From Styela clava (taxonomy: Eukaryota): a DNA stretch of 64,000 bases. Position 1 is the stretch's first letter. Every line of letters begins with the position of its first letter. Below are positions 1-25,155 of this stretch, in pieces. Below the pieces are notes generated by a model. It saw only the letters and a list, made by a program, of their open reading frames with translations. It had not been told where the DNA came from and made no database searches. Location: the NCBI RefSeq assembly GCF_964204865.1, contig NC_135263.1, positions 14,384,001-14,448,000 on the forward strand, read 5' to 3'. Made by a program: the position numbers and the translations under genes.

Positions 1-497
1 AAATAGTTTCATCAAAAAAGAATGTTCAGAAACAAGCAAGACTGCTAGAAAATTGTTTACCAGACGCTTCAACAAGCGAGTCATATCCGAAAAAGATAAC
101 CAGCAAGAATCCAACAGAAAATATTGTCATCAAAAAATTAAAGTCATCAGTAGAACAGAAAAAGCATGAGAAAATGCAAAATAAAAAGACTGTCGGTAAA
201 AAGCCGAAAACGAAGTCTGTTAATAAAAAAGAATTAAACAAAAATCGTCAAAGACCAAGTGTTAATGAACCGCTTGTACCGAAGTCGTCTGCAAATAATA
301 AGATTTCAAAGAAGACCGACAAAGGAAAATCAACAAACCAGAAACCAACTTTTTCTCACGTGAAGCCAACGAAAAAACCATGTGTTACGAAAACAACAAA
401 ACCTTCATTTTCTTTTGGATTCTTTTCTCGACTTTCTTTTATGATGGATCAATTTGGTTTTAACTCCAACGTTGTGAAAAATGATTCCTGTTCTTGA
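1..497 (+). CDS. Secreted Cys-rich/Lys-rich protein, copy 1 (A type); only part of the last exon is in the window
   Basis: Open frame from nt 3 (IVSSKKNVQKQARLLENC...NDSCS*), nearly identical to the last exon of copy 3 (9110-9651). Upstream exons lie outside the window. Confidence 0.85.
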   Translation, partial: IVSSKKNVQKQARLLENCLPDASTSESYPKKITSKNPTENIVIKKLKSSVEQKKHEKMQNKKTVGKKPKTKSVNKKELNKNRQRPSVNEPLVPKSSANNKISKKTDKGKSTNQKPTFSHVKPTKKPCVTKTTKPSFSFGFFSRLSFMMDQFGFNSNVVKNDSCS

Positions 498-1114
498 TTA
501 GCATGCAGCAGAATTTAAATTTTTTTTATAATATTAAATTATTACAACAACAATTACCCTTAAACTTATTTTCACGCTTCTCTGCATTTTTTTTGTCTTT
601 TGGATAAAAATATAGTGCTTTTATACTATAACCACTTTCTATTGGATATGTCGGGGTTCATCATCAATCACTGCGGGCTAGATAAAAATCAATATTCAGA
701 AGAGAATAGTTGACCGGTCTGAATGCATGAAATTCGATGGTCAAAAAATAAGCGGAAGTTATGTGAGCCATTCTGCGGCGACAATTTTTTTCACATAATT
801 GTCTCTTGTGGAATTCGAATCTCAATAAGCAATATTGATACGATTGCGAGTAAATGAATAGTCTGATGACTCTCCGGAAATCTTGAATATAGCTGAACAA
901 ATAGTGTTGCAGTTTCTGGTTTCGAAATAAAACCCACCGGTTCTTGCTATAATTTCAGAAGCAAGAAAATCGTTGATTTAAAAACAGAACAAAGAAAGCG
1001 TACTTTTGTAGTTGAAAACCCGCAGTTTGCATCTGCAAAGCCTTGTGTTAAAATCGGCAAAATGGACTCTCGTAGATCAGTTTGATTACCACTCTCAAGT
1101 AATTTGAAGGATAA

Positions 1115-1417
1115 TTACTTATGGATTTTAATCGGTAAGTATGTTGATAGGTATTTGTCTGTCTTTAAGTCTGTCTGTCTGTTAGATGCACGCGATATCT
1201 CACGAAAACGAGATTGAATCTGCTCCAGATTTTGCATGTGCATTCGTCATATCTCGGACCAAGAGTCTATTGATTTTGGGCGAAATATGTCGTATAATTA
1301 GCGAGTTATTAATTAATTAGTGATGGGACACAAGGTCACTATGGAATAAGAGCGCTGTTTTGGGGATCCCCCAACTTTCGATCGATAAGTCTTCGGTCTC
1401 TGACCGATATTTTCGTT
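1115..1417 (+). mobile_element. Helentron-associated non-autonomous element (HINE / DINE-1-like), ~303 bp
   Basis: Subterminal inverted repeat acttatggat...atcgataagt, 5' hairpin tactta...taagta, (gtct)n microsatellite, 3' hairpin tcggtc-tct-gaccga followed by a T-rich end. This matches the DINE-1/HINE layout. Confidence 0.65.
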
Positions 1418-2312
1418 ATAGTAGTTATTGCCTCTTGCGTTTATGCTTTTGAATAAGCATTAAACACGTGATTTTCACGTTCTTTTGGCGACAGTGATGG
1501 TTTCAAAAATCGGGAATCGTTGAGAATTGACTTCACATTGTACAATATAATTCTGATCAAACCATTATTGAAACTACTTTCTATATCTTGATAACAAAAT
1601 GTTTCCAAAACTGTGGTATTTAATTGGGACTGTTTCATATCTGAAATAAATTTTAGTTAATAAAAATTTGAACCTTTAGTTCATTGTTTAATTGTCTAAT
1701 ACTAACATTTAAATTAACAAATTTAGCGGGTAAATTAGTAGTAATTCTAACAACAACTTTCTACGTTTACCACCTTATTCAATACGAAAAACACATTGAA
1801 AATCACAGAGTCTAAAATACCAAGATTAGTCTAACTACCAACAATCTATGCATTTTTTCGGGTAGCCTACAAAACATTCCCACCTTGATTTCAAATATTC
1901 ATTCAGACTCAGGCTAATAATTAAATTATTGAGTCTTATTTCCTGATTTAATATTTTAACCATACACCAGACAACGTAAAACAAAATAACCAATTTTGGA
2001 ATGTTCTAAAGCTCTATTCTGAATTGTATAAACACCATGACATCTACACAGTATTGCTATTTTGATTAAAATCTAAGACAAAATATCCAATAAAAAAAGC
2101 TGGAAATGATTAAAATCACAAAAAATAATTTCTATTAATATTTATTATATTGATTGCCGCAAGTGTTTATTGTTCTATAATCACGCATATGGAGAGCATT
2201 GTTGATCAATTCAAAAAACACTATTTAAAATATCAAAATAACAATTATATTTAAAATAAAAAATAAATAAAACAACAAATAATTGCGTCGTTATAATTCT
2301 GTTTCGTGCAAA

Positions 2313-3457
2313 TCAGGCACAGGCCTCATTTTTCACAACGTTGGAGTTAAACCCAAATTTATCCATCATAAAAGAAAGTCGAGAAAAGAATCCAAAAGAA
2401 AATGAAGGTTTTGTTGTTTTCGTAACACAAGGCTTCTCTGTTGGATTTACGTGAGGAGCTGTTGGTTTCTGGTTCGTTGATATTTCTTTGCTAGGTTTCT
2501 TTGAAAACTCATTCTTTGCAGACGACTTCGGTACAAGCGGGTTATTAACAATTGGTCTTTGACGACTTTTGTTTGATTCTTTCTTGTCAAAAGACTTCGT
2601 AGTCGTTTTTTTAGAGACTGTCCTCTTATTTTGCATTTTTTCATGCTTTTTCTGTTCTACTGATGACTTCAATTTTTTGATGACGTTATTTTTTGTTGGG
2701 TTCTTGCTAGTAATTTTTTTCGTGGATGACTCACTTGGCGAAGTGTCTGGAAAACAATTTTCGAGCAGTCGTGCTTGTTTCTGAATTTTCTTTTTCGATG
2801 AAACTATTTTTGATAATTTGTATTCTTCTGGAATGATACCTTGTGAGGTTCCGGCTAAAATATTTAAAAAATACAATATAAGTGAATAAATAAACATACG
2901 AAGCCTATTATTGCACTCAAACAATAAAAGCAGACAAACTATTTCATTGTTTAACAAGCGAAAATTAATAAACACAAAGAAAAATAAAACAAACCTCCTT
3001 TAACTATGCAAGAACATTTATAGATACAACAGTGAGAGTACGCTTTGTTTCCACAATCTTTTGGATCGACGAGTTTCTTGTTACGGAAATCATAGCAAGG
3101 AATCGTTTTTCTTTCAAATCCTTTTACTGTATACAGAAATACCAAATGTTATAAATAGCAATACCTATTACAAAAAAATCTTCTGATTATTTGTTGAAAC
3201 AAAGCAAGAAAGACGAAGGTATTATAAGATAATATTATATGAAATTGAATAAAAATGCTTTTTATAATTTATATACGAATAATACACGAATTTTTAATAT
3301 TTTGAATTGATACGAGAATGAAATATGTGCTGGCATCGTTATTGAACTTACCTGGAGCACATTGTGTTTTGCTGATTTTATATCTGAGCTGAAAAGGGGT
3401 GAGTGATGCAGCAATATTGCAAATCCCAATGACAACGACAAAAAGTAATAATTTCAT
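2313..3457 (-). CDS. Secreted Cys-rich/Lys-rich protein, copy 2 (B type), 259 aa
   Basis: Exons 3457-3352 (106 nt; MKLLLFVVVIGICNIAAS signal peptide), 3126-2995 (132 nt; Cys-rich), 2854-2313 (542 nt). Both introns GT-AG, phase 1; total 780 nt, open frame. Confidence 0.9.
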
Positions 3458-3665
3458 TTTGTTAGGAAGTAATTCTGCAAAAATATACCAGATTTTATTT
3501 TACTCTTATGATTAACCAACTTTGAGATGGGAATAGTAGTTGAAACTGTACAATATTCATTTGTATCATGACTAGAGCAAGCACTTGAATATTTCAGTAG
3601 CTCTGAACATACTTGTTCGAAATACAATAATCGAATCTATGTTGCAACAAGAAATTGTTTGTAGC

Positions 3666-3803
3666 TTTTATAGTTTCAGATTGACATTTGTGTTTATTGC
3701 CTTGAGCAACGATTGCCCTACATTACTATGTAAATTTGCATGCTTGTTACGTTTCTTAGCCACAAATCGTAATTTCATTTACTTTGGTAGCGTCACAGTG
3801 ACG
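3666..3803 (-). promoter_or_regulatory. Putative promoter of copy 2: TATAAAA box and CGTCA-N3-TGACG palindrome
   Basis: ttttata at 3666-3672 and gcgtca-cag-tgacgc at 3790-3804; same arrangement upstream of all six complete copies. Confidence 0.55.
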
Positions 3804-6242
3804 CATTTTCTGTAAACCTAAACAAAGTGCTCTTGAACACATACTATTAGTAGACTCAAAGAATCCGTAGACTTGAATATTGCTATCGCCACGATAAATA
3901 CGTCATATTGAGTTTAAAAATAGAACAAGATTAAATCGTTGGATTAAGCTTTTCATGTAAAAATCAGGCTGTAATGGATTAACAAAGATGAAATGAGTCA
4001 TGAAATTTTGTAAAAGTTTCAAATAACGTCAAGGAGACTTTATTTGCTAGTATTTTTCTGTCTTTAATCAAATGTAATAAAATAAATTGTCATTAGTTAA
4101 TGACATCATGCGATATAGCACGACATGGAATATCATTTAAATTAGGATTAGACGTTTGACGGTCGGGATCAAACAAAACCTAAAAATTCATTTAATTGAG
4201 CACTAGTTTCTCTGCACAATAAATCATATGAATATAAACCGCTTTATAGTTATATTAAAGTTACATTGTTTATTATTCAAAAAAAATCGATTATGGATTA
4301 GTAGATGGATTATCCTGGTTCTATGTCGTAATTTTTTTAAATTGATCCACAGTTTTTGTTATAAAGTTGCAGTTTAACAATTATATAAAATTTAAAGATC
4401 TATTCTAACCGAGATATTAAAAATATATAGAAGTTTAAATTTTTTATATTCAGCATTTCAACCGAGTATATTTAATAAAATAATTATTGCAGAATTTGTT
4501 AGATTCTTGTAAATCAAATTCCAAAAAAATGGTTTCCCATAAACAAAATGTTTATCAGACTCAAAAGTGAATGTAATTAAAGCTTCGCAGCATTAATAAA
4601 ATCTAAACTAATATTTTAGCAAAATATGAAACTTTCATTTGTGAGTTTCATTGTGAGAATACACAATATATTTATTCATACAATTAAAATATAAAACAAC
4701 AATTTAAAGAAAAAATACAGAAAACGGAAAGGTGGAAATAGGCTGAATTCACTACTGTCATGAATATTAAAGTTAAACACGTATATGCATAAGCCCAACA
4801 CATTCTCTGCGAAAGCTTGATAAAAATTACGCATTTTTATGACAAAGTGATCAGTATAACTACATCGTAAGTTACTTCTATTTTAAACAATTTATACCGC
4901 GGTTATTAAGCGATTAAACGTTATGTTTCAATATATCCATAGTTTAAATAGAAAATGAAAAAGTAATTGATTTAAAATATAATTCATCATTTGTATGATT
5001 ATAATATTTATTACGTCAAGAAGTCTTACTTTTCGTGTTCGAATTTTGTTTGCAATTTGCTTCAAAAATGCGTCGGTCAAAAATCAATTTGTGGGCAATA
5101 AATCTGCTTACGATAAATGCGACAAATGTCATTCTATCACCTTGGATTAAATAAAGTATTTATACGTGTGAACTTCACATATATAATTATTGAACATGTG
5201 TAAATGTAATCGAATATGTGAATTTATATTTATCCTGAGCCATAAGTTCAACAGAGTACATTTCTGCCTATTTCCGAAATTCATTTTTCTTTTTCTTTTT
5301 CCCTAACATTATTCTTTTATATTTTAATTGTATAAATATATTGTGTATTATTGGAAAGTCACAAATAAAAGTACCATGTTTTGCTATGATATTAGTTTTA
5401 AATTTTAGTGATGCTGTAAAGCTTTAATGACATTTACTTTCAGGTGTGATACACATTTATTTATGGAGAATCATAGTTAAAGCGGTATATCTTTATAAGA
5501 ATATTCTTACAAAGACTAGTGCCGAATTAGTTTCATCCCGACCGTCAAACCTGTAAACCTCTTTAAAATTATTATACCTCATTGCACTAAAATGCATGAT
5601 GTCAATAACTTACTAATGATAAAAAAATATGCTAATCACAATTGAATTGAGAAAGTAAAACGCATTTAAGTAAAGTCTTCCCGGCGTTATTTGGGTATTT
5701 TACAAAAATCCCAATCTCATTCTATCTCTATGTTTCGTTAAACATAAATGTTAATCCATAACACCCCAGACATTACCATCCACTATAGCTTAATTTTTAC
5801 CTAAAAAGATTAATCCAATTCAAGACAATGTAGTTATGGGGAACGTCTGTACCCAAATATGAAATAACCATTCTAAATAGTGTGATCAAGTCAAAATATT
5901 TCTGACTAATCGAACTTGCAAAAATAATCTTTCCACTTATCTACAGAGAGACTCCAAAATAGAGAACTTATAAATTTTATGATTACTTGTTAATTTTCTT
6001 ATCAACCGACCTTCTGTTTTAGTAAGATTGTACCCAAAAGTTTCACGTTGTGCATGAAAGTTATGTTCTCTTTGGAACATGTTCCAAATGGCCATTTTGG
6101 CGTTGAAGACACACTTGCATACGTTGCAGCCTTGAGTTTACCAGTCGAATAATGATTGCCTTGACCAACTATTGTTTTACAATTCAAATTATGTTTGCAT
6201 TTCACCAATAGTTTTAAACACAATTTGTAATTGTATTAACAT

Positions 6243-6420
6243 CAGTTGCGTCATAATGACGTATTTTCAGTAATCACAAACACACCACATACAAATAAAT
6301 ATCATTAATTAATGCTCCTAAAGAAACACCACACTCGGTGGCGTCATGGTGACGTATTTTCAATAATCCCAAACAAATCACACTCAAATAAATATCATTA
6401 AATAATGCTCTCAAATAATC
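6243..6420. repeat. 93-bp tandem duplication near the centre of the divergent spacer, each unit carrying CGTCA-N3-TGACG (candidate shared enhancer)
   Basis: cgtca-taa-tgacg at 6249 and cgtca-tgg-tgacg at 6342, each followed by tattttca..taatc..caaac...aatgctc; homologous pair at ~21660-21830. Confidence 0.7.
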
Positions 6421-8046
6421 GACAGACTTGTCTATTGCTATTGTCGGGATTAAACGTCATAGCGAGTTTAAAAATAGATCTGAATAAATCCGATAGACTA
6501 AGTTTTTTACGTTGGAAATACGCGACAACACAGATAAAATGTGACATGAAAATACATTGCAAAACTTTTGGATTTAGTCCATCATTTTATCCTTCTTTGA
6601 CAATGAATGATTGTTAGATTAACTTTAAAAAAATATTGTTGAGGTGATAATGATATGTTTAATATGTATTGCCTATTAAGGGACCTATATTTTTTCTTGT
6701 ATAAAAGAATTATTTTTATAAAGTTTATTTCAATTAGGTAGCAAATCAGAAATTAAGCTTTTTTGTGATAAAAAAAAATTCTGACAAATTTATTCATATA
6801 CCTAAATTTAATTATTACACAATAGCGCATGAGATCCTTTTTTTTTATAAACATATTATAACAGAAATCTACTGTGTAGAACGTATGGCTCAGGATAAAT
6901 ATAAATTCTCATATTCGATTACATTTACACACGTGCAATAAATATATAGGTGTATAAGTTCACACGTATAAATACAGTTTTAATCCAGGACGATAGAATG
7001 ACATTTGTCGTATTTATTGTTAAACAGATTTATTGCCCACAGATTGATGACGCATTTTTGAAGCAAATTGCAAATAAAGTTCGAACACGAAAATTACGAA
7101 TTTTTGACGTCATAAATATTATAATTATACAAATATTGCATTATATTTTATTAAATTATCCTTTTTTTCAGTTTTTATTAAAACTATTTATTTACTGAAA
7201 GTTATAACTGCGTCATAAATTGTTTAAAAATAGAAGTTACTCCTAATGTACTTATCACATTGTCATAAACATTCGTGGTTTTTACTAATGTGCAGGACTA
7301 ATGCATCAACATGCATCAGATGTTGATGTTCAATTTTGGTTTAATATTTATGATATTGGTGATTTCAGCCTATTTCCACATTTCCTGTATTTTTTCCTAA
7401 GGTTGCTTTTTTGTATTTTAGTTGTATAGATATTTGGGATTTCTGGAAACTCAGAATAATCTTAGTTTTAGATTTTGATGATGTGGTAAAGCTTTAATGA
7501 CATTCTAATATCTCGATGTAAATTCTTCATAAATTCATACATTTTAAAACTGCAACTCTAAAATATAAAATTGTGGATGAACAAGAGTATCTTTTAATGG
7601 ATACAGGTATATCAATTCCTAATATTCTGAATTAATTTATTTTAAATAATAAACAATGTAACTTTGGGTATAACTATAAATTTGTATATGATAATAAAAT
7701 TCGTTATAATGCATTTAAAAGGCATGATGTCATTAACTTACTAATGATAAACACTATGTTAATCACGATTGAATAAAGACAGAAAAATACTACCTAATAA
7801 AGTCTTCTTGACGTTATTAGGGAATTTTACTAAAATTCATGTCACATTTTATGTTTTTACATCTTTGTTAATCCATTGCAACCTGATTTTCACGTGAGAA
7901 GCTCAATCTAACTTTTTAATCTTGTTTTATTTTTAAACTCACTATGACGTATTAATCGTGACAATAGCAATAATTAAATCTACGGATTCTTTGAGTCTAC
8001 TAGTAGTATTTATTCAAGAGGTCTTCGTTTGGGTTTACAGAAAATG

Positions 8047-8192
8047 CGTCACTATGACGATACCAAGGTAAATGAAATTACGATTAGTGGCTAAGAAACG
8101 TTACAAGAGTGCAAATTTACAAAGTAATATGGGGCAATTGTTGCCCGAGGCCAGAAACACAAATGTCAATCTGAAACTTTGCATCTATAAAA
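8047..8192 (+). promoter_or_regulatory. Putative promoter of copy 3: CGTCA-N3-TGACG palindrome and TATAAAA box
   Basis: cgtca-cta-tgacg at 8047-8059; tataaaa at 8186-8192, 230 bp before the ATG. Equivalent TATA boxes at 12850, 14325, 18961 and 23751. Confidence 0.55.
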
Positions 8193-8415
8193 GCTACAAA
8201 CATTTTCTTGTTACAACATAATTCGATTATTGTATTTCGAAAAAATATGTTCAGAGCGACTGAAATATCTAAGTGCTTGTACTAGCCGTAAATGATAAAT
8301 TGCACAAATGGGTATTTATACAGTATTATTCCAATGCTATTTCAACCTTAAATTTGGTTAATCACAGCATCAAAATAAAATCTAGTTTATTTTTACAGAA
8401 TTACTTTCTAACAAA

Positions 8416-9651
8416 ATGAAATTATTATTCTTTGTCGTGGTCGTCGGGATTTGCGATATTGCAGCATCATTGACCCCTTTTCAGCTCAGATATAAAATCA
8501 GCAAAACACAATGTGCTCCAGGTAGGTTCAAGATTTTATTGTCTCATATCTGATATATGTTTTAGACTATCTAAAGATTCCAGCACATATCCTATTCTTT
8601 AATTCCCTAAAAAAAAATGCGTTCAAAATTACAAATAGCATTTTTATTTAATTTCATTTAATATTATCTTACAATATCACAATGTTTTTTGCTTTGCTTT
8701 AACGAATAATCAAGAGAATTCTCGGAAATAGTTATTGTTATTTATAACATATGGTATTTCTGTATACAGTTAGAGAATTTGAAAGAAAAACGATTCCTTG
8801 CTATGATTTCCGTAACAAGAAACTCGTCGATCCAAAAGATTGTGGAAACAAAGCGTACTCTCACTGTTGTATTTATAAATGTTCTTGCATAGTTAAAGGA
8901 GGTTTGTTTTATTTTTTTTGTGTTTATTAATTTTCGCTTTTTAAACAATTAAATAGTTTGCCTGGTTTTATTGTAGCCAAAACACAAGAAAATTCCTCAG
9001 TTGGTTTATCAGGACATTTTTGAAATTTTATAGGCACAACACTTGTGATACGTTTGAGTGCGATAATACTCTTTGTAACTTTTACTTATTCACTTTTATT
9101 TTTTTTTAGTCGGAACCTCACTAGGTATCATTCCAGAAGAATATAAATTATCAAAAATAGTTTCATCAAAAAAGAATGCTCAGAAACAAGCAAGACTGCT
9201 AGAAAATTGTTTACCAGACGCTTCAACAAGCGAGTCATATCTGAAAAAGATAACCAGCAAGAATCCAACAGAAAATATTGTCATCAAAAAATTAAAGTCA
9301 TCAGTAGAACAGAAAAAGCATGAGAAAATGCAAAATAAAAAGACTGTCGGTAAAAAGCCGAAAACGAAGTCTGTTAATAAAAAAGAATTAAACAAAAATC
9401 GTCAAAGACCAAGTGTTAATGAACCGCTTGTACCGAAGTCGTCTGCAAATAATAAGATTTCAAAGAAGACCAACAAAGGAAAATCAACAAACCAGAAACC
9501 AACTTTTTCTCACGTGAAGCCAACGAAAAAACCATGTGTTACGAAAACAACAAAACCTTCATTTTCTTTTGGATTCTTTTCTCGACTTTCTTTTATGATG
9601 GATCAATTTGGTTTTAACTCCAACGTTGTGAAAAATGATTCCTGTTCTTGA
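8416..9651 (+). CDS. Secreted Cys-rich/Lys-rich protein, copy 3 (A type), 259 aa
   Basis: Exons 8416-8521, 8770-8901, 9110-9651; GT-AG phase-1 introns. MKLLFFVVVVGICDIAAS-LTPFQLRYKISKTQCAP-VREFERKTIPCYDFRNKKLVDPKDCGNKAYSHCCIYKCSCIVKG-VGTSLG...NDSCS*. Confidence 0.9.
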
Positions 9652-10269
9652 TTAGCATGCAGCAAAATTTAAAATTTTTTTATAATATTAAATTATTACA
9701 ACAACAATTACCCTTAAACTTATTTTCACGCTTCTCTGCATTTTTTTTTGTCTTTTGGATAAAAATATAGTGCTTTTATACTATAACCACTTTCTATTGG
9801 ATATGTCGGGGTTCATCATCAATCACTGCGGGCGAGATAAAAATCAATATTCAGAAGAGAATAGTTGACCGGTCTGAATGCATGAAATTCGATGGTCAAA
9901 AAATAAGCGGAAGTTATGTGAGCCATTCTGCGGCGACAATTTTTTTCACATAATTGTCTCTTGTGGAATTCGAATCTCAATAAGCAATATTGATACGATT
10001 GCGAGTAAATGAATAGTCTGATGACTCTCCGGAAATCTTGAATATTGCTGAACAAATAGTGTTGCAGTTTCTGGTTTCGAAATAAAACCCACCGGTTCTT
10101 GCTATAATTTCAGTAGCAAGAAAATCGTTGATTTAAAAACAGAACAAAGAAAGCGTACTTTTGTAGTTGAAAACCCGCAGTTTGCATCTGCAAAGCCTTG
10201 TGTTAAAATCGGCAAAATGGACTCTCGTAGATCAGTTTGACTACCACTCTCAAGTAATTTGAAGGTTAA

Positions 10270-10572
10270 TTACTTATGGATTTTAATCGGTAAGTATGTT
10301 GATAGGTATTTGTCTGTCTTTAAGTCTGTCTGTCTGTTAGATGCACGCGATATCTCACGAAAACGAGATTGAATCTGCTCCAGATTTTGCATGTGCATTC
10401 GTCATATCTCGGACCAGGAGTCTATTGATTTTGGGCGAAATATGTCGTATAATTAGCGAGTTATCAATTAATTAGTGATGGGACACAAGGTCACTATGGA
10501 ATAAGAGCGCTGTTTTGGGGATCCCCCAACTTTCGATCGATAAGTCTTCGGTCTCTGACCGATATTTTCGTT
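10270..10572 (+). mobile_element. HINE/DINE-1-like element (duplicated with the array unit)
   Basis: Near-identical to 1115-1417 with the same flanks. Confidence 0.65.
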
Positions 10573-11466
10573 ATAGTAGTTATTGCCTCTTGCGTTTATG
10601 CTTTTGAATAAGCATTAAACACGTGATTTTCACGTTTTTTGGCGACAGTGATGGTTTCAAAAATCGGGAATCGTTGAGAATTGACTTCACATGGTACAAT
10701 ATAATTCTGATCAAACCTTTATTGAAACTACTTTCTATATCTTGATAACAAAATGTTTCCAAAACTGTGGTATTTAATTGGGACTGTTTCACATCTGAAA
10801 TAAATTTTAGTTAATAAAAATTTGAACCTTTAGTTCATTGTTTAATTGTCTAATACTAACATTTAAATTAACAAATTTAGCGGGTAAATTAGTAGTAATT
10901 CTAACAACAACTTTCTACGTTTACCACCTTATTCAATACGAAAAACACATTGAAAATCACAGAGTCTAAAATACCAAGATTAGTCTAACTACCAACAATC
11001 TATGCATTTTTTCGGGTAGCCTACAAAACATTCCCACCTTGATTTCAAATATTCATTCAGACTCAAGCTAATAATTAAATTATTGAGTCTTATTTCCTGA
11101 TTTAATATTTTAACCATACACCAGACGACGTAAAACAAAATAACCAATTTTGGAATGTTCTTAAGCTCTATTCTGAATTGTATAAACACCATGACATCTA
11201 CACAGTATTGCTATTTTGATTAAAATCTAAGACAAAATATCCAATAAAAAAAGCTGGAAATGATTAAAATCACAAAAAATAATTTCTATTAATATTTATT
11301 ATATTAATTGCCACAAGTGTTTCTTGTTCTATTATCACGCATATGGAGAGCATTGTTGATTAATTCAAAAAACACTATTTAAAATATCAAAATAACAATT
11401 ATATTTAAAATAAAAAATAAATAAAACAACAAATAATTGCGTTGTTATAATTCTGTTTCGTGCAAA

Positions 11467-12641
11467 TCAGGCACAGGCCTCATTTTTCACAACGTTGGAG
11501 TTAAACCCAAATTGATCCATCATAAAAGAAAGTCGAGAAAAGAATCCAAAAGAAAATGAAGGTTTTGTTGTTTTCGTAACACAAAGCTTCTTTGTTGGAT
11601 TTACGTGAGGAGCTGTTGGTTTCTGGTTCGTTGATATTTCTTTGCTAGGTTTCTTTGAAAACTCATTCTTTGCAGACGACTTCGGTACAAGCGGGTTATT
11701 AACAATTGGTCTTTGACGACTTTTGTTTGATTCTTTCTTGTCAAAAGACTTCGTAGTCGTTTTTTTAGAGACTGTCCTCCTATTTTGCATTTTCTCATGC
11801 TTTTTCTGTTCCACTGATGACTTCAATTTTTTGATGACGTTATTTTTTGTTGGGTTCTTGCTAGTAATTTTTTTCGTGGATGACTCACTTGGCGAAGTGT
11901 CTGGAAAACAATTTTCGAGCAGTCGTGCTTGTTTCTGAATTTTCTTTTTCGATGAAACTATTTTTGATAATTTGTATTCTTCTGGAATGATACCTTGTGA
12001 GGTTCCGGCTAAATATATATAAAAAATACAATATAAGTGAATAAATAAACATACGGAGCCTATTATTGCACTCAAACAATAAAAGCAGACAAACTATTTC
12101 ATTGTTTAACAAGCGAAAATTAATAAACACAAAGAAAAATAAAACAAACCTCCTTTAACTATGCAAGAACATTTATAAATACAACAGTGAGAGTACGCTT
12201 TGTTTCCACAATCTTTTGGATCGACGAGTTTCTTGTTACGGAAATCATAGCAAGGAATCGTTTTTCTTTCAAATCCTTTTACTGTATACAGAAATACCAT
12301 ATGTTATAAATAGCAAAACTATTATGAAAAAAAATCTTCTGATTATTTGTTGAAGCAAAGCAAGAAAGACGGTGGTATTATAAGATAATATTATATGAAA
12401 TTAAATAAAAATTCTTTTTATAATTTTATACGAATTTTTAATATTTTGAATTAATACAAGAATGAAATATGTGCTGGCATCGTAATAAAATCTAAAATAT
12501 ATATCAGATATGAGGCAATAAAATTTTGAACTTACCAGGAGCACATTGTGTTTTGCTGATTTTATATCTGAGCTGAAAAGGGGTCAGTGATGCTGCAATA
12601 TCGCAAATACCGACGACCACAACAAAAAGTAATAATTTCAT
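11467..12641 (-). CDS. Secreted Cys-rich/Lys-rich protein, copy 4 (B type), 259 aa
   Basis: Exons 12641-12536, 12281-12150, 12008-11467; GT-AG; open frame ending NEACA*. Confidence 0.9.
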
Positions 12642-14554
12642 TTTGTTAGAAAGTAATTCTGCAAAAATAAAACAGGTTTTATTTTACTCTTATGATTAAC
12701 CAACTTTGAGATGGAAATAGTAGTTGAAACTGTACAATATTCATTTGTATCATGACTAGAGCAAGCACTTGAATATTTCAGTAACTCTGAACATACTTGT
12801 TGGAAATACATTAATCGAATCTATGTTGCAACAAGAAATTGTTTGTAGCTTTTATAGATGCAAAGTTTCCGATTGTCATTTGTGTTTATTGCCTTGAGCA
12901 ACGATTGCCCTACATTACTATGTAAATTTGCATGCTTGTTACGTTTCTTAGCCAAATATCGTAATTTTATTTACCTTTGTAGCGTCACAGTGACGCATTT
13001 TCTGTAAACCCAAACAAAGTGCTCTTGAACACATACTATTAGTAGACTCGAAGAATCCGTAGACTTGAATATTGCTATCGCCACGATAAATACGTCATAT
13101 TGAGTTTAAAAATAGAACAAGATTAAATCGTTGGATTAAGCTTTTCATGTAAAAATCAGGCTGTAATGGATTAACAAAGATGAAATGAGACATGAAATTT
13201 TGTAAAAGTTTCAAATAACGTCAAGGAGACTTTATTTGCTAGTATTTTTCTGTCTTTATTTAAATGTAATAAAATAAATTGTCACATTGTCATATTAATA
13301 TTTACGAATATGCAGGGCTTATGCATGTTCACATGTTTCAGTTTAATATTTCTGATAGTGGTAATTTCAGCCTATTTCCACAACTCATGTTCCTGCATTT
13401 TTTCCTAAAATTGCTTTTTTGTATTTTAATTGTATAGATATTTGGGATTTTTGAAAACTCAGAAAAATTTTAGTTTTAGATTTCAATGAAGTGGTTGAAG
13501 CTTTAATGACACTCTAATATCTCAATGTAAAGTCTCCACAATTTTTTTAAATTTTAAAGCTGCAACTTAAAAATATATATATATATATGTATGAATTTAG
13601 AAAAATATAAATATATAACCAGGAGTTTTTAATTTGAATACGTGTATATTTATTCATAATTTTCTGACTTAATTTCTGAATAAAATTTCTAAATTAAATA
13701 ATAAACAATGTAACTTTAGTATAACTAAAAAACGGTATATATTTATAAGAATTGCTATAATGATTCTAGTGCTCAAAGAAATGAATTTTTAGGTTTTGTT
13801 TTATCCCTACCGTCTAACCCTTAATCCTCATTATAATTATATTTCATATTGGTTTAAAATACATGATGTCATTTACTTACTAATGATTAACATCATGTTA
13901 ATCACGATCAAATAAAGGCAGGAAAATACTACGAAATAAAGTCTTCTTGACGTTATTTAGAACTTTTACAAACATGCATGTCCCTATTTATCTTATTTCA
14001 TCTTTGTCAATCCATTGCAACCTGATTTTCACGTGAAGAACTCAATCCAACAATTCAATCTTGTTCTATTTTTAAACTCGCTATGACGTATTAATCGCGA
14101 CAATAAAAATAGTTAAATCTACCGATTCTTTGAGTCTACTGATAGTATTTATTCAAGAGCACTTTGTTTTGGTTTACAGAAAATGCGTCACTGTGACGAT
14201 ACCAATATAAATGAAATTACGATTTGTGGCTAAGAAACGTTACAAGAGTGCAAATTTACATAGTAATATGGGGCAATTGTTGCCCGAGGCCAGAAACACA
14301 ATTGTCAATCTGAAACTTTGCATCTATAAAAGCTACAAACAATTTCTTGTTACAACATAATTCGATTATTGTATTTCGAAAAAATATGTTCAGAGCTACT
14401 GAAATATCTAAGTGCTTGTACTAGCCGTAAATGATAAATTGCACAAATGGGTATTTATACAGTATTATTCCACTTCTATTTTAAACTTAAATTTGGTTAA
14501 TCACAGCATTAAAATAAAATTTGGTTTATTTTTGCAGAATTACTCTCTAACAAA

Positions 14555-15778
14555 ATGAAATTATTACTCTTTGTCGTGGTCGTCGGGATTTGCGATATTG
14601 CAGCATCATTGACCCCTTTTCAGCTCAGATATAAAATCAGCAAAACACAATGTGCTCCTGGTAGGTTCAAGATTTTATTGCCTCATATCTGTTATATGTT
14701 TTAGACTATATAAAGATTCCAGCACATATCCTATTCCTTAATTCCCCCAAAAATTAAATTACGTTCAAAATTACAAAAAGCATTTTTATTTAATTTCATT
14801 TAATATTATCTTACAATATCACAATGTTTCTTGCTTTGCTTTTCAAGAGAAGTCTCTGTAATAATTATTGTTATTTATAACATATGATATTTCTGTATAC
14901 AGTTAAAGGATTTGAAAGAAAAACGATTCCTTGCTATGATTTCCGCAACAAGAAACTCGTCGATCCAAAAGATTGTGGAAACAAAGCGTACTCTCACTGT
15001 TGTATTTATAAATGTTCTTGCATAGTTAAAGGAGGTTTGTTTTATTTTTTTTGTGCTTATTAATTTTCGCTTTTTAAACAATGAAATAGTTTGTCTGATT
15101 TTATTGTAGCCAAAACACAAGAAAATTCCTCAGTTGGTTTATCAGGACATTTTTGAAATTTTATAGGCACAACACTTGTGATACGTTTGAGTGCGATAAT
15201 ACTCTTTACTTATTCATTTTTATTTTTTCTTAGCCGGAACCTCACAAGGTATCATTCCAGAAGAATATAAATTATCAAAAATAGTTTCATCAAAAAAGAA
15301 TGTTCAGAAACAAGCGAGACTGCTAGAAAATTGTTTATCCGACTCTTCAACAATAAGCGAGTCATATCCGAAAAAGATAACCAGCAAGATTCCAACAAAC
15401 GATATTGTCATCAAAAAATTAAAGTCATCAGTAGAACAGAAAAAGCATGAAAAAATGCAAAATAAAAAGACTGTCGTGAAAAAGCCAAAAACGAAGTCTG
15501 TCAATAAACAAGAATTAAACAAAACTCGTCAAAGACCAAGTGTTAATAAACCGCTTGTACCGAAGTCGTCTGCAAATAACAAGTTTTCAAAGAAGACCGA
15601 CAAAGGAAAATCAACAAACCAGGAACCAACTTTTTCTCACGTGAAGCCAACGAAAAAACCATGTGTTACGAAAACAACAAAACCTTCATTTTCTTTTGGA
15701 TTTTTTTCTCGACTTTCTTTTATGATGGATCAATTTGGTTTTAACTCCAACGTTGTGAAAAATGATTCCTGTGCTTGA
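14555..15778 (+). CDS. Secreted Cys-rich/Lys-rich protein, copy 5 (A type), 260 aa
   Basis: Exons 14555-14660, 14903-15034, 15234-15778 (last exon has an in-frame 3-nt insertion); GT-AG. Confidence 0.9.
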
Positions 15779-16394
15779 TTAGCATGCAGCAGAATTTAAA
15801 AAATTTTATAATATTAAATTATTACAACAACAATTACTCTCAAACTTATTTCCACGCTTCTCTGCATTTTTTTTGTCTTTTGGATAAAAATATAGTGCTT
15901 TTATACTATAACCACTTTCTATTGGATATGTCGGGGTTCATCATCAATCACTGCGGGCTAGATAAAAATCAATATTCAGAAGAGAATAGTTGACCGGTCT
16001 GAATGCATGAAATTCGATGGTCAAAAAATAAGCGGAAGTTATGTGAGCCATTCTGCGGCGACAATTTTTTTCACATAATTGTCCCTTGTGGAATTCGAAT
16101 CTCAATAAGCAATATTGATACGATTGCGAGTAAATGAATAGTCTGATGACTCTCCGGAAATCTTGAATATTGCTGAACAAATAGTGTTGCAGTTTCTGGT
16201 TTCGAAATAAAACCCACCGGTCCTTGCTATAATTTCAGTAGCAAGAAAATCGTTGATTTAAAAACAGAACAAAGAATGCGTACTTTTGTAGTTGAAAACC
16301 CGCAGTTTGCATCTGCAAAGCCTTGTGTTAAATTCGGCAAAATGGACTCTCGTAGATCAGTTTGATTACCACTCTCAAGTAATTTGAAGGTTAA

Positions 16395-16697: not shown

Positions 16698-17579
16698 ATA
16701 GTAGTTATTGCCTCTTGCGTTTATGCTTTTGAATAAGCATTAAACACGTGATTTTCACGTTCTTTTGGCGACAGTGATGGTTTCAAAAATCGGGAATCGT
16801 TGAGAATTGACTTCACATTGTACAATATAATTCTGATCAAACCTTTATTGAAACTACTTTCTATATCTTGATAACAAACTGTGTATTTAATTGGGACTGT
16901 TTCATAACTGAAATAAATTTTAGTTAATAAAAATTTGAACCTTTAGTCCATTGTTTAATTGTCTAATACTAACATTTAAATTAACAAATTTAGCGGGTAA
17001 ATTAGTAGTAATTCTAACAACAACTTTCTACGTATACCACCTTATTCAATACGAAAAACACATTGAAAATCACAGAGTCTAAAATACCAAGATTAGTCTA
17101 ACTACCAACAATCTATGCATTTTTTCGGGTAGCCTACAAAACATTCCCACCTTGATTTCAAATATTCATTCAGACTCAAGCTAATAATTAAATTATTGAG
17201 TCTTATTTCCTGATTTAATATTTTAACCATACACCAGACGACGTAAAACAAAATAACCAATTTTGGAATGTTCTTAAGCTCTATTCTGAATTGTATAAAC
17301 ACCATGACATCTACACAGTATTGCTATTTTGATTAAAATCTAAGACAAAATATCCAATAAAAAAAGCTGGAAATGATTAAAATCACAAAAAATAATTTCT
17401 ATTAATATTTATTATATTAATTGCCACAAGTGTTTCTTGTTCTGTTATCACGCATATGGAGAGCATTGTTGATTAATTCAAAAAACACTATTTAAAATAT
17501 CAAAATAACAATTATATTTAAAATAAAAAATAAATAAAACAACAAATAATTGCGTTGTTATAATTCTGTTTCGTGCAAA

Positions 17580-18752: not shown

Positions 18753-21700
18753 TTTGTTAGAAAGTAATTCTGCAAAAATAAAACAGGTTTTATTTTACTC
18801 TTATGATTAACCAACTTTGAGATGGAAATAGTAGTTGAAACTGTACAATATTCATTTGTATCATGACTAGAGCAAGCACTTGAATATTTCAGTAACTCTG
18901 AACATACTTGTTGGAAATACATTAATCGAATCTATGTTGCAACAAGAAATTGTTTGTAGCTTTTATAGATGCAAAGTTTCAGATCGACATTTGTGTTTAT
19001 TGCCTTGAGCAACGATTGCCCTACATTACTATGTAAATTTGCATGCTTGTTACGTTTCTTAGCCAAATATCGTAATTTTATTTACCTTTGTAGCGTCACA
19101 GTGACGCATTTTCTGTAAACCCAAACAAAGTGCTCTTGAACACATACTATTAGTAGACTCGAAGAATCCGTAGACTTGAATATTGCTATCGCCACGATAA
19201 ATACGTCATATTGAGTTTAAAAATAGAACAAGATTAAATCGTTGGATTAAGCTTTTCATGTAAAAATCAGGCTGTAATGGATTAACAAAGATGAAATGAG
19301 ACATGAAATTTTGTAAAAGTTTCAAATAACGTCAAGGAGACTTTATTTGCTAGTATTTTTCTGTCTTTATTTAAATGTAATAAAATAAATTGTCATTAGT
19401 TAATGACATCATGCGATATAGCCCAACATGGAATATCATTTTAATTAGGATTAGACGTTTGACGGTCGGGATTAAACAAAACCTAAAAATTTATTTAATT
19501 GAGCACTAGTTTCTTTGCATAATCAATCATATGAATATAAACCGCTTTATAGTTATATTAGAGTTACATTGTTTATTATTCGAAAAAAATCGATTATGGA
19601 TTAGTAGATGGATTATCCTGGTTCTATTTCGTAATTTTTTCAAGTTCACCCGCAGTTTTTGTTTTAATTAAAGTTGCAGTTTAACAATTTTATAAATTTT
19701 GAAGATCTATTCTAACCGAGATATTAAAAATATATAGAAGTTTAACTTTTTTATATTTAGTGCATTTTAACCGAGTATATTTAACAAAATAATTATTGCA
19801 GATTTTGTTAGATTCTTGTAAATCAAATACCGAAAATGGTTTCCCCTAAACAAAATGTTTATCAGACTCAAAAGTGAATGTAATTAAAGCTTTACAGCAT
19901 TATTAAAATCTAAAACTAACATTATAGCAAAATATGAAACTTTCATTTGTGAGTTCCCAATAATACACAATATATTTATTTATACAATAATTAAAATATA
20001 AAAGAACAATTTTAGGGAAAAAATACAGAAAACTGAAAGATGGAAATAGTCTGAATTCACCACTATCATAAATATTAAATTAAAACATATGTATATGCAT
20101 AGGCCCAACACATTCTTTGCAAAAGATTGATGAAAATCACGAATTTTTATGACAAAGTGATCCGTAAGTACATCATGAGTTACTAAGCGATTAAACGGCA
20201 AGTTTTAGTAAATCTATAGTTTCGATAAAAAAAAGTAATTGATTTAAAATATAATTCAGTAATTGTATACACATACTAATATTTATGACGTCAAGAAGTC
20301 GCACATTTCGTGTTTGCAATTTGCTTAAAATGCGTCATCAATCTGTGGGAATAAATCTATTTAACAATAAATACGACAAATGTCATTCTATCGTCTCGGA
20401 TTAAATAAAGTCCTTCTACGTGTGAACTTTACATATATAATTATTGCACATGTGTAAATGTAATCGAATATGTGAATTTATATTATCCCGAGCCATAGGT
20501 TCTACACAGTACATTTCTGCCTATTTCTGAAATTCATTTTTCTGTATTTTTTTTTAACATTGTTCTTTTATATTTTAATTGTATAAATAAATATATTGTG
20601 TGTGTATTATTGGAAATTCACAAAAGAAAGTGTCACATTTTGTTATGATCTTAGTTTTAGATTTCACAATGCCGTGAAGCTTTAATGAGATTCACTTTTA
20701 GGTGTGATACGTGTCTTTTCTGTCAAATATACTCGATTGAAAAGTACTTCTTCTTTTTTTTCTAATATCTCGATGTAAAATCTCCAAAATTTATAAAACT
20801 TTCAAAATGCAACTTTAAAAACAGAAAAGTGTGAATGAATTTAGAAAAATTTGAACATCGAAACAGGAATTTCTGTTGACTACAGATATATCTACTAATC
20901 CATAATCTGCCAAATCGATTTTCATTGAATAATAAACAATGTGAATTTGGTATAACTATAAAGCGATATATCTTTATAAGATTAATCTTGCAAAGACTAG
21001 TGCCGAATTAAATGAATTTTTTAGGTTTTGTTTCATCCCGACCGTTAAACCTGTAAACCTCTTTAAAATTATTATTTCATATTGCACTAAAATGCATGAT
21101 GTCATTAACTTACTAATGATAAAAAAAATATGCTAATCACAATTGAATGGAGAAAGTAAAACGCATTTAAATAAAGTCCTCCCGGCGTTATTTGGATATT
21201 TTACAAAAATCTTGATCTCATTTTATCCTTTGTCTATGTGTCGTTAAACATAAAGTTCAATCTATAACACCATAAATATTCTGTCCATTATAGCCTAATT
21301 TTCTACCTAAAAATATTAATTCAATGATTTAATCTATTTTTTATACTTGGCAAGTCTGCTGATTTTTTGATTCTACAATTTTTTTCAAAATTTTGTCCAA
21401 ATCGACTAGAATTACGTCAGTATGATGTTATTGAATGCAACAGAATGACGAATTGTTGTAAACATTTTATAATATAAATTGAAAATTGCGTCACACGTCT
21501 CTAGGCAAGATTAAAAATATTGTGTCATTAAGAAAATTCAAGACAATGTAGTTATGGGAACGTTTGTACCCAAATATGAAATTAACATTCTAAAGAGTGT
21601 GATCGAGTCAAAAAATATCTGACTAATCGAACTTGCAAAAATAAAAATAGAGAACATCAGTTGCGTCATAATGACGTATTTTCAGTAATCACAAACACAC

Positions 21701-23979
21701 CACACTCATTAAAAAATAACATTAATTAATGCTCCTGAAGAAACAACACACTCGGTGGCGTCATGGTGACGTATTTTGAATAATCCCAAACAAACCACAC
21801 TCAAATAAATATCATAATTTAATGCTCTCAAAGAATCGACAGACTTGTCTATTGCTATTGCCAGAATAAAACGTCATAGCGAGATTAAAAATAGATCTGA
21901 ATAAATCCGATAGACTAAGTTTTTTACGTAGGAACTACGGGACAAGATATAAATTCAAATAACTTAAACACAGATAAAATGGGACATGAATTTTGTAAAA
22001 TTTCCAAATAACGTCAGCAAGAAGACTTTAATTGTAAGTAATCATATGTCTTTATTTAGTTGTGACTTTTGATGTTAGTTAGTTAATGACATCAACGGTT
22101 TTATCCCAGTATGAAATGTTATTGTAATGGAGTTTAGGCTGGGATAAGATTAAAACCTAAATCCCATTTGATTGATCAATGATCTCCTTTAAAGCAAATT
22201 TGAAAAACAGAGAAAGTTTTCACTGAATTTACATTATTCCTTATAATTATAATAAAAGTGAAAGAAATGTGGTTTCAATACACATATATTCAATTCAAAT
22301 ATGTCTGGTTTGGTATTCTAATTTTGTCTAAATTCATTCACAATTTTTTGTATTCAAGTGTCTGTTTTGATGTTTTACTAATTTTTGGGTGGTTCGTATC
22401 AGGGTATTCAAAATTTATAAAATACCATATTATTAGTGCATTTACAGAAAATACATTGCAAAACTTTTGAATTCAGTCCATCATTTTATCCTTCTTTGAC
22501 AATGAATTTTTTCTTGTATGCGAGAATTATTTTTGTATAAAGTTTAGATCAATTACGTAGCAAATCAGTAATCAGGCTTTTTTGTAATAAAAAAAAAATA
22601 TGGCAAATTTATTCATATACTTAAATTTAATTATTACACAATAACGCTGGAGATCCTTGTTTTTTTTTATAAACATATTATAACAGAAATCTACTGTGTA
22701 GAACGTATGGCTCAGGATAAATATAAATTCACATATTCGATTACATTTACACACGTGCAATAATTATATAGGTGTATAAGTTCACACGTATAAATACATT
22801 TTTAATCCAAGACGATAGAATGACATTTGTCGTATTTATTGTTAAACAGATTTATTGCCCACAGATTGATGACGCATTTTTGAAGCAAATTGCAAACAAA
22901 GTTCGAACACGAAAATTACGAATTTTTGACGTCATAATATTATAATTATACAAATACTGCATTATATTTTAAGTCAACTACTTTTTCAGTATTTATTTAA
23001 ACCATGTATTTACTGAAGGTTAACGTTTAATCGCTTAATAACTGCGTCATAAATTGTTTAAAAATAGAAGTAACTCATAATGTGCTGATCACATTGTCAT
23101 ATTAATTTTTACGAATATGCAGGGCTTATGCATGTTCACATGTTTCAGTTTATAATTTATGATAGTGGTAATTTCATTTATAATAATGATTCTAGTGCTC
23201 AAAGAAATGAATTTTTAGGTTTTGTTTTATCCCTACCGTCTAACCCTTAATCCTCATTATAATTATATTTCATATTGGTTTAAAATACTTGATGTCATTT
23301 ACTTACTAATGATTAACATCATGTTAATCACGATCAAATAAAGGCAGAAAAATACTACGAAATAAAGTCTTCTTGGCGTTATTTAGAACTTTTACAAAAA
23401 TGCATGTCTCATTTTATCTTGTTTCATCTTTGTCAATCCATCGCAACCTGATTTTCACGTAAAGAGCTCAATCCAACAATTCAATCTTGTTCTATTTTTA
23501 AACTTGCTATGACGTATTAATCGCGACAATAAAAATAGTTAAATCTAACGATTCTTTGAGTCTACGGATAGTATTAATTCAAGAGCACTTTGTTGGGGTT
23601 TACAGAAAATGCGTCACTATGACGATACCAAGGTAAATGAAATTACGATTTGTGGCTAAGAAACGTTACAAGAGTGCAAATTTACATAGTAATATGGGGC
23701 AATTGTTGCCCGAGGCCAGAAACACAAATGTCAATCAGAAACTTTGCATCTATAAAAGCTACAAACAATTTCTTGTTACAACATAATTCGAATATTGTAT
23801 CTCGAACAAATATGTTCAGAGCTACCGAAATATCTAAGTGCTTGTACTAGCCGTAAATGATAAATTGCACAAATGGGTATTTATACAGTATTATTCCAAT
23901 TCTATTTCAACCTTAAATTTAGTTGATCACACCATTAAAATAAAATCTGTTTATTTTTGCAGAATTACTTTCTAACAAA

Positions 23980-25155
23980 ATGAAATTATTACTCTTTGTC
24001 GTGGTCGTCGGGATTTGCGATATTGCAGCATCATTGACCCCTTTTCAGCTCAGATATAAAATCAGCAAAACACAATGTGCTCCTGGTAGGTTCAAAATTT
24101 TATTGCCTCCTATCTGATATATGTTTTAGACTATATAAAGATTTCAGCACATATCCTATTCCTTAATTCCCTAAAAAAAAATTGCGTTCAACAATGTTTT
24201 TTGCTTTGCTTTAACGAATAATCAAGAGAATTCTCTGTAATAGGTATCGTTATTTATAACATATGTTATTTCTGTATACAGTTAAAGGATTTGAAAGAAA
24301 AACGATTCCTTGCTATGATTTCCGCAACAAGAAACTCGTCGATCCAAAAGATTGTGAAAACAAAGCGTACTCTCACTGTTGTATTTATAAATGTTCTTGC
24401 ATAGTTAAAGGAGGTTTGTTTTATTTTTTTTGTTCATTAATGTTTGCTTTTTAAACAATGAAATGCCTGATTTTATTGTAACCAAAACACAAGAAAATTC
24501 CTCAGTTGGTTTATCAGGATATTTTTGAAATTTTATAGGCACAACACTTGTGATACGTTTTAGTGCGATAATACTCTTTGTATCTTTTACCTATTCACTT
24601 ATATTTGTTTTAGCCGGAACTTCACAAGGTATCATTCCAGAAAATTATAAATTATCGAAAATAGTTTCATCAAAAAAGAATGTTCAGAAACAAGCAAGAC
24701 TGCTAGAAAATTGTTTATCAGACGCTTCAACAAGCGAGTCATATCCGAAAAAGAAAACCAGCAAGAATCCAACAGAAAATATTGTCATCAAAAAAATAAA
24801 GTCATCAGTAGAACAGAAAAAGCATGAGAAAATGCAAAATCAAAAGACTGTCGTGAAAAAGCCGAAAACGAAGTCTGTTAATAAAAAAGAATTAATCAAA
24901 AATCGTCAACGACCAAGTGTTAATAAACCGCTTGTACCGAAGTCGTCTGCAAAGAATGAGTTTTCAAAGAATCCCGACAAAGGGAAATTAACGAATCAGA
25001 AACCAACTGCTTCACACGTGAAGCCAACGAAAAAGCCATGTGTTACAAAAACAACAAAACCTTCATTTTCTTTTGGATTCTTTTCTCGTCTTTCTTTTAT
25101 GATGGATCAATTTGGTTTTAACTCCAACGTTGTGAAAAATGATTCCTGTGCTTGA
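23980..25155 (+). CDS. Secreted Cys-rich/Lys-rich protein, copy 7 (A/B mosaic), 259 aa
   Basis: Exons 23980-24085, 24282-24413, 24614-25155; GT-AG; open frame. The 3' flank differs from copies 1, 3 and 5. Confidence 0.9.

What the first reader, a model, noticed from the sequence alone, without database searches (positions are those of the whole stretch)
1..25155. Seven-copy array of an unrecognised secreted tripartite protein
Seen: signal peptide; Cys module C33-x12-C46-x13-C60-x7-C68C69-x3-C73-x-C75 plus C113 (8 Cys, mostly on a symmetric phase 1-1 exon); a highly basic Lys/Ser/Thr/Pro linker of about 110 aa; and a Phe-rich tail bracketed by two Cys. The ORF track never shows the whole protein. 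Inference: GFERKTIPCYDFRNKKLVDPKDC resembles the C-terminal half of ADAMTS-type thrombospondin repeats (without the Trp ladder) and DC-x7-CC-x3-C resembles WAP, but neither fits fully. Recent amplification suggests a high-dosage secreted effector (adhesive, tunic/coat, or cationic defence protein).
Basis: partly seen in the sequence, partly recalled or inferred. Interest (0 to 1): 0.75.

Follow-up and report, generated by a model that had tools for sequence, protein, structure and literature searches.

The report
Sea-squirt cysteine-capped cationic protein array
A sea squirt carries 14 near-identical, spliced copies of a gene for an undescribed protein with two conserved cysteine-bearing ends around a floppy, positively charged middle, which is likely secreted and would most plausibly coat or stiffen the animal's sugar-rich outer layers.

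Summary
All seven copies are at the stated places with GT-AG, phase-1 introns; contigs from three runs guessed to be RNA (one study) skip both introns. The array is larger than reported: 14 copies in alternating orientation, built from a 9.15-kb two-gene unit (98.7-99.3% identical); 3 of 14 are truncated, one inside the window. RefSeq already models the proteins as uncharacterized Styela clava products. Thirteen divergent paralogous loci keep an 8-Cys N-module and a 2-Cys amphipathic C-module, while the linker varies from 39 to 198 aa and net -1 to +62. A profile search of 1.84 billion proteins found only S. clava and two unnamed fragments from other organisms; Pfam and PDB gave nothing; folds were low-confidence. 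New here: a 12-Cys subfamily has the eight cysteines in WAP order, but profile support is weak; the thrombospondin likeness does not beat shuffles. Best reading: a lineage-restricted secreted matrix/coat protein (0.45); rival: WAP-like defence protein (0.27). Tissue and function are unshown. The scan's earlier notes held nothing like this sequence.

The parts
1..497 (+). Copy A, exon 3 (gene starts 739 nt left of the window; whole, 259 aa)
897..1004 (+). Frameshifted relic of an exon 2 of a third, dead paralogue; repeated at 10073-10159 and 16198-16263
1110..1420 (.). Dispersed ~300-nt repeat inside the unit, matched by hundreds of contigs in all 4 runs laid
2313..3457 (-). Copy B: exons 3457-3352, 3126-2995, 2854-2313; 259 aa, same as RefSeq model P0001; leader exon ends at 3783
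3342..12483 (.). One 9.15-kb repeat unit (a head-to-head and tail-to-tail arrangement of one minus and one plus gene with spacers); units 98.7-99.3% identical
8416..9651 (+). Copy C: exons 8416-8521, 8770-8901, 9110-9651; 259 aa; leader exon ends at 8067
11467..12641 (-). Copy D: exons 12641-12536, 12281-12150, 12008-11467; 259 aa; leader exon ends at 12975
14555..15778 (+). Copy E: exons 14555-14660, 14903-15034, 15234-15778; 260 aa, same as RefSeq model P0003
17580..18752 (-). Copy F: exons 18752-18647, 18394-18263, 18121-17580; stop at codon 140, giving 139 aa without most of the linker and without the C-module
   Evidence: RefSeq 139-aa model P0004
23980..25155 (+). Copy G: exons 23980-24085, 24282-24413, 24614-25155; 259 aa; last copy of the array; leader exon ends at 23632
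24282..24413 (+). Exon 2 of copy G as type example of the symmetric phase 1-1 exon with six of the cysteines
25039..25152 (+). C-module of copy G: Cys, Phe-rich amphipathic helix, invariant Gly, strand-like segment, Cys

Best explanation
These spliced genes encode a lineage-restricted ascidian protein with a conserved 8-cysteine N-module and a conserved 2-cysteine C-module around a variable Lys/Pro/Thr/Ser linker; it is likely secreted, predicted to be disulfide-bonded, and would most plausibly work as a coat or matrix component whose cationic linker binds sulfated sugars of tunic or mucus while the two ends fold together or join neighbours. Shown: gene structure, splicing, copy number, conservation pattern, purifying selection, charge. 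Inferred: secretion (hydrophobic leader, no transmembrane or anchor segment), five disulfides (ten conserved Cys, one extra pair gained or lost together), disorder of the linker, packing of the C-module's hydrophobic face on the N-module or on other copies, and the glycan target. The array likely grew by unequal crossing-over of a two-gene unit after an older inverted duplication.
For: Hydrophobic N-terminal stretch (best 9-residue Kyte-Doolittle mean 2.4-3.6) and no later 19-residue window above 1.1 in 12 of 12 proteins tested. Ten Cys conserved in 14 of 14 full-length representatives; an extra pair (before the first Cys and four residues after the second) is present together in 6 of 13 N-module rows and absent together in the five other full rows, as expected of a disulfide. 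Between orientation classes, uncorrected pN/pS is 0.20 (N-module), 0.23 (C-module), 0.39 (linker), 24 pairs: the ends are constrained, the linker is looser but still under 1. Linker length 39-198 aa and net charge -1 to +62 with fixed flanks fits a tunable polymeric tether; two paralogue linkers score weakly with extensin-like and histone-H1-like models below their cut-offs (one exon tested). The C-module has a hydrophobic moment of 0.35-0.76 in 14 of 14. Both introns are skipped in 3 of 4 runs laid. Context from papers: the Ciona larval cuticle is coated with glycosaminoglycans (10.1101/2024.09.30.615758, passages); chondroitin sulfate from S. clava tunic is cited by title in PMC5465252 (passage).
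Against: No tissue, stage or protein localisation was obtained. Five C14 paralogues have neutral linkers, so polycation binding cannot be the family-wide function. A signal peptide does not prove secretion in ascidians: Ciona Epi-1 has one and is cytosolic. The WAP-order cysteines of the 12-Cys subfamily point towards defence or antiprotease proteins instead. 3 of 14 array copies and 2 of 13 other loci are truncated, so high dosage may not be selected. No confident structure was obtained.
Confidence: 0.45

Rival explanations
1. It is an innate-defence protein built like trappin or crustin: a remodelled WAP four-disulfide core (antiprotease or antimicrobial) tied to a cationic, Lys-rich anchor, with the amphipathic Phe-rich C-module possibly acting on membranes.
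For: 12-Cys members have Cys spacing 12,3,9,5-8,0,3,1 against 8-11,3,4-5,5-6,0,3,3-4 in most S. clava WAP matches; hhalign aligns the cysteines in order, probability 7.6%, reached by 1 of 60 full shuffles. Birth-and-death clusters with pseudogenes. WFDC proteins are antiprotease/antimicrobial and trappin is anchored by a Lys/Gln domain (PMC11408880, PMC9680087; passages). S. clava makes Phe-rich helical antimicrobial peptides (clavanins named in PMC5465252; their Phe content is recalled).
Against: The window's own 10-Cys form lacks WAP's third Cys and scores no better than shuffles (34 of 60); 7 of 60 Cys-kept shuffles reach the 12-Cys score; Pfam WAP hits none of 9 members and none of the 22 genomic WAP matches is a family locus. 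The Cys lost with WAP-position 3 is the N-terminal one, not the partner expected from WAP pairing (pairing recalled). The N-module is conserved, not diversifying. No furin-type site next to the C-module in the array proteins.
Confidence: 0.27
2. It is a settlement or holdfast adhesive: the Lys-rich linker gives wet adhesion or is cross-linked, and the cysteine modules give cohesion.
For: Lys/Arg-rich cement proteins and TSP1-like domains occur in marine adhesives, including Ciona stolon proteins (PMC12817120, passages). Five Cys and a G-x7-C segment can be mapped on ADAMTS-type repeats by eye.
Against: TSP1 profile matches do not beat shuffles. The linker has almost no Tyr (sequences), unlike DOPA adhesives (recalled). 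Described ascidian adhesives carry vWA/EGF/TSP1 domains. No papilla or stolon expression shown.
Confidence: 0.12
3. It is an egg-coat, test-cell or sperm-surface protein, expanded as reproductive proteins often are.
For: Species-restricted family; an EGF + ZP-domain gene lies directly beside the array.
Against: Strong conservation rather than rapid change in the folded modules; adjacency is weak evidence, and the other three clusters were not shown to have such neighbours.
Confidence: 0.08
4. The gene is functional but the 14-copy array is selectively near-neutral: an inverted two-gene unit keeps amplifying and decaying by unequal exchange and gene conversion. (This can hold together with any functional reading.)
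For: Units 98.7-99.3% identical and carrying a dead exon and a dispersed repeat; 3 of 14 copies truncated; exon 2 has 0.25 differences in 12.5 four-fold sites between classes against 0.11-0.22 per site elsewhere, a hint of conversion.
Against: 11 of 14 copies are intact and both classes appear in transcript-like contigs. The conversion hint rests on few sites.
Confidence: 0.4

Closest known systems
RefSeq Styela clava uncharacterized proteins (LOC144432183, LOC120341269, LOC144431909 and paralogues)
   Same: Identical or near-identical gene models on the same 20,054,287-nt contig.
   Different: Automatic models without name, domain or function; six of their identifiers were found in 0 papers of the library.
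WAP/WFDC four-disulfide core proteins (trappin-2/elafin, crustins)
   Same: Secreted; eight Cys in the same order with CC-x3-C and Asp-Cys before it in the 12-Cys subfamily; folded Cys module joined to a low-complexity, Lys- or Pro-rich segment.
   Different: Last spacing 1 instead of 3-4, fourth 9 instead of 4-5; third Cys missing in the window's form; 2-4 further Cys and a separate C-module; module is N-terminal, not C-terminal; no Pfam WAP match.
ADAMTS-type thrombospondin type-1 repeat (PF19030)
   Same: G-x7-C, Cys-x-Asp hairpin, and C-x4-C spacing can be laid on five Cys; a homologue fragment's weak genome hit (E 0.16) fell in a multi-TSR gene.
   Different: No Trp ladder, no CSxTCG, no conserved Arg ladder; profile scores within shuffles.
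Fibronectin type I module (PF00039)
   Same: C-x-C-x3-G-x-G segment; best PDB sequence hit was fibronectin at E 2.6; 0 of 40 shuffles reached the hhalign score.
   Different: Only 9-12 columns align, probability 8-16%; the fourth Cys and the Tyr/Trp core are absent; the genomic FN1 search did not list the family.
Ciona Epi-1 (tunicate-specific tunic gene)
   Same: Tunicate-restricted, signal peptide, role in the tunic surface.
   Different: Trefoil domains, 80 kDa, cytosolic; no sequence link was found or tested.

Membership tests
WAP/WFDC (PF00095) | Eight conserved Cys in a 40-50 aa domain in WAP order | tested here: inconclusive
   Met in order for the 12-Cys subfamily (43-45 aa span), with two spacings off; not met in the window's 10-Cys form, which lacks the third Cys (definition).
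WAP/WFDC (PF00095) | Score above the Pfam cut-off | tested here: not met
   0 of 9 N-modules; S. clava WAP HMM scores -4.6 to 4.0 bits, within the range of TSR controls.
WAP/WFDC (PF00095) | Four-disulfide-core pairing and fold | not testable with these tools
   Models had mean pLDDT 38.6 and 49.2; joint loss of two Cys argues for a non-WAP pair.
TSP1 repeat, ADAMTS type (PF19030) | W-x2-W ladder and CSxTCG motif | tested here: not met
   Absent from all family rows and present in S. clava TSRs.
TSP1 repeat, ADAMTS type (PF19030) | Six Cys with profile-level similarity | tested here: not met
   Five Cys map by eye; hhalign 9.5 and 11.1 bits, reached by 19 of 40 and 46 of 200 Cys-kept shuffles; single 10-Cys rows beat shuffles weakly against a template chosen after the fact (0-35 of 200 for six rows, 134 for one).
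Fibronectin type I (PF00039) | Four Cys (C...C-x-C...C) with Tyr/Trp core over ~40 aa | tested here: not met
   Only the C-x-C-x3-G segment aligns; family loci absent from the 12 genomic matches.
ShK/ShKT | Six-Cys ShK pattern and Pfam score | tested here: not met
   Atlas leads at 0.75-0.77 with low recognition are below the 0.9 mark; Pfam ShK not hit.
Secreted protein (general) | Cleaved signal peptide, no membrane anchor | tested here: inconclusive
   Hydropathy pattern met in 12 of 12; SignalP and localisation could not be run.

The most novel reading that the evidence does not exclude
A WAP four-disulfide core was rewired in ascidians into a new fold that is clasped by disulfides to a C-terminal helix-strand module, closing a ring around an exchangeable linker whose length and charge are tuned from neutral to +62: a family of disulfide-closed polycation loops that organise the cellulose/sulfated-glycan tunic.
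Probability: 0.15. Interest if true: 0.7.

Novelty: new variant of a known kind. Interest (0 to 1): 0.4.

Why it matters
The protein part of the ascidian tunic and of ascidian fouling adhesion is poorly described. A 27-locus family with fixed cysteine ends and a linker of tunable charge is a concrete, testable candidate in an invasive fouling species, and the paired gain or loss of cysteines gives a direct handle on how small disulfide folds are rewired. If it proves to be one more lineage-restricted secreted protein in a turning-over array, it is ordinary: such arrays are common in this genome.

Tried and rejected
Structure: AlphaFold2 on the shortest full-length paralogue (14 rows) gave mean pLDDT 38.6 and on the N-module (13 rows) 49.2; Foldseek found nothing at E<=0.001 and VIA-align nothing at Z>=2 among 48,161 chains; with such models this says nothing on the fold. 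The N-module/C-module complex job returned no verdict (score 0.00, alignments not used). ESM Atlas: only sub-threshold ShK leads for P0001, no usable hit for P0018. Pfam: no hit over a cut-off for 6 proteins/exons, 9 N-modules, 12 C-modules. PDB sequences: best E 2.6 and 0.72. Word-limited searches added nothing beyond S. clava and P0027. P0029 (E 1.2e-6) is a tandem-repeat reading frame and was dropped as chance; weak genome hits at C3:1170369 and C16:5139288 lack the cysteine pattern. No RNA holder was listed as such; runs X9-X12 held next to none of the words, which is no evidence; contig depths cannot rank expression. A short G-F-x5-(P)-C echo between the end of the C-module and the start of exon 2 is not significant (probability 1%). 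An assembly artefact was considered and rejected: units differ by about 1% and carry copy-specific stops. Supplement of PMC10980280 uses other gene identifiers, so its cell-type markers could not be linked (file cut when stored); the supplement of PMC7540406 was listed, not read; bioRxiv supplements are closed and may hold expression data. The family tree has no well-supported inner branch. Earlier scan notes: no look-alike; the notes listed concern other genes.
Full report
1. What is there. The window is G000:C18:14384001-14448000; identical proteins are RefSeq 'uncharacterized protein' models of Styela clava on a contig of the same length. Exon searches and spliced reconstruction found seven copies in 1-25155 with GT-AG, phase-1 introns and a 132-nt second exon. 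Five are whole inside the window (259, 259, 259, 260, 259 aa), one is cut by the window edge but whole in the genome, and one has a stop at codon 140. A leader exon lies 308-331 nt upstream in 13 of 14 copies.

2. Splicing. Of 4 runs laid on copy G, two (X1, X2) hold contigs that skip both introns exactly at GT..AG with 60-131 letters on the short side, a third (X3) skips both with 1-2 other letters at the joint (short sides 125 and 30), and the fourth (X5) covers the introns and shows neither joint. X1-X3 are one study and are only guessed to be RNA. On copy B, X2 shows both skips and a 186-nt piece of minus-class exon 3 with one difference; X9, of another study, shows the second joint with only 28 letters on the short side, under the tool's mark; X1 and X4 show 3'-side pieces only. 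So both orientation classes appear in transcript-like contigs; level, stage and tissue are unknown.

3. The array. The genome holds 27 exon-2 matches: 14 in this array (14.350-14.409 Mb), 5 at C18:12.81-12.84 Mb, 1 on C19, 7 on C14 (searches with two divergent exons added only one weak hit). The array alternates minus and plus genes; the repeat unit is 9.15 kb and units are 98.7-99.3% identical. Each unit also carries a frameshifted relic exon and a dispersed repeat. Plus and minus classes differ much more (introns 79% and 69%, linker DNA 82%, exon 2 97.6%), so an older inverted duplication was followed by recent tandem growth (inference). 11 of 14 copies are intact. Uncorrected pN/pS over 24 between-class pairs of 10 equal-length intact copies is 0.20 for leader and N-module, 0.39 for the linker, 0.23 for the C-module. 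Exon 2 is also poor in silent change (0.25 of 12.5 four-fold sites), a weak hint of gene conversion. A decayed piece of array-type DNA sits in the 12.82-Mb cluster, which suggests the array came from there.

4. The family. Fourteen full-length representatives share eight N-module Cys and two C-module Cys, an invariant Arg in the first strand-like segment, and Gly residues after exon 2 and in the tail. The linker runs from 39 to 198 aa; net charge is +18 to +21 in the array, +36 to +62 at 12.8 Mb, +16 on C19 and -1 to +4 on C14. Six of 13 N-module rows have two extra Cys, always together. Two of the 13 non-array loci are broken in this assembly. HMMER over 1.84 billion representatives gave 11 hits at E<=0.001: eight S. 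clava clusters, two unnamed genomic fragments (P0027, P0028) and one repeat artefact. Relatives closer than 50% would be hidden inside clusters, and unannotated ascidian genomes are thinly covered, so 'ascidian-restricted' is an inference.

5. What the N-module resembles. Pfam and PDB sequence searches are blank. Three partial likenesses were tested against profiles built from this genome's own domains. TSP1: five Cys map by eye, but scores lie within shuffles (19 of 40; 46 of 200). FN1: 12 columns only, probability 10%. WAP: the 12-Cys subfamily has eight Cys spaced 12,3,9,5-8,0,3,1 against 8-11,3,4-5,5-6,0,3,3-4 in most S. clava WAP matches; probability 7.6%, reached by 1 of 60 full and 7 of 60 Cys-kept shuffles; the 10-Cys group scores at chance. 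WAP descent is therefore the best lead but not membership, and the joint loss of two Cys does not fit WAP pairing as recalled. Predicted structures were too poor to decide.

6. How it most likely works. Shown: two constrained ends, a loose charged middle, an even and co-varying Cys count, a leader-like start and no anchor. Inferred: secretion; a compact disulfide N-module; an amphipathic helix-Gly-strand C-module that needs a packing partner; a disordered linker that in the C18 genes binds polyanions. The simplest use in an ascidian is as a coat or matrix component on sulfated glycans of tunic, cuticle or mucus (0.45). A WAP-like defence role is the main rival (0.27), then adhesion (0.12) and gamete coats (0.08). 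Whether 14 copies are needed is a separate, open question.

7. Literature. Nine searches listed no paper that describes this family; six RefSeq identifiers gave 0 papers. Seen: passages of PMC7540406 plus its section 3.3.1 and supplement list; supplement search of PMC10980280; passages of 10.1101/2024.09.30.615758, PMC12817120, PMC5465252, PMC11408880, PMC9680087. The library lacks most subscription journals.

8. Verdict. A real, expressed, recently amplified gene of an undescribed lineage-restricted family; no family membership is established; function is untested. Novelty: new variant of a known kind (secreted cysteine module plus low-complexity tether). Interest 0.40.

Noticed in passing
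window 26571-31900 (+): Exons of an EGF-like + ZP-N + ZP-C domain gene directly right of the array (Pfam ZP-N E 4.8e-7, ZP-C E 2e-9).
   Followed up: partly
window 38853-40222 (-): Decayed LTR-retrotransposon-like integrase fragments (rve E 1.5e-8).
   Followed up: partly
window 45431-45727 (+): Last exon of an iodothyronine deiodinase gene (PF00837 E 2.3e-18).
   Followed up: partly
window 57455-64000: GC-rich (45-47%) tandem array of 1.2-1.4-kb units, 85-95% alike, running off the window; no Rfam match.
   Followed up: no
window 1110-1420 and equivalents in other units: ~300-nt dispersed repeat (SINE- or MITE-like) matched by hundreds of contigs in each of 4 runs.
   Followed up: no
leader of all copies, e.g. 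window 23939-23983: After leader splicing an upstream ATG opens a 14-codon frame whose stop overlaps the main ATG; an older RefSeq model (P0007) and the X3 contig have a one-base variant that puts it in frame.
   Followed up: partly
L085 (G000:C1:15716001-15726000, -): A gene with at least 15 single-exon thrombospondin type-1 repeats in 10 kb.
   Followed up: no
L026-L027 (G000:C18:12819800-12822000): Decayed fragments of an array-type gene and its spacer inside the divergent paralogue cluster.
   Followed up: partly
window 3670-8180: The head-to-head spacer is itself a mosaic of nested inverted repeats (34 pairs of 30 nt or more in 500-9200).
   Followed up: no
L039-L044: Several FN1-like exons in this genome (one above the Pfam cut-off), on five contigs.
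   Followed up: no
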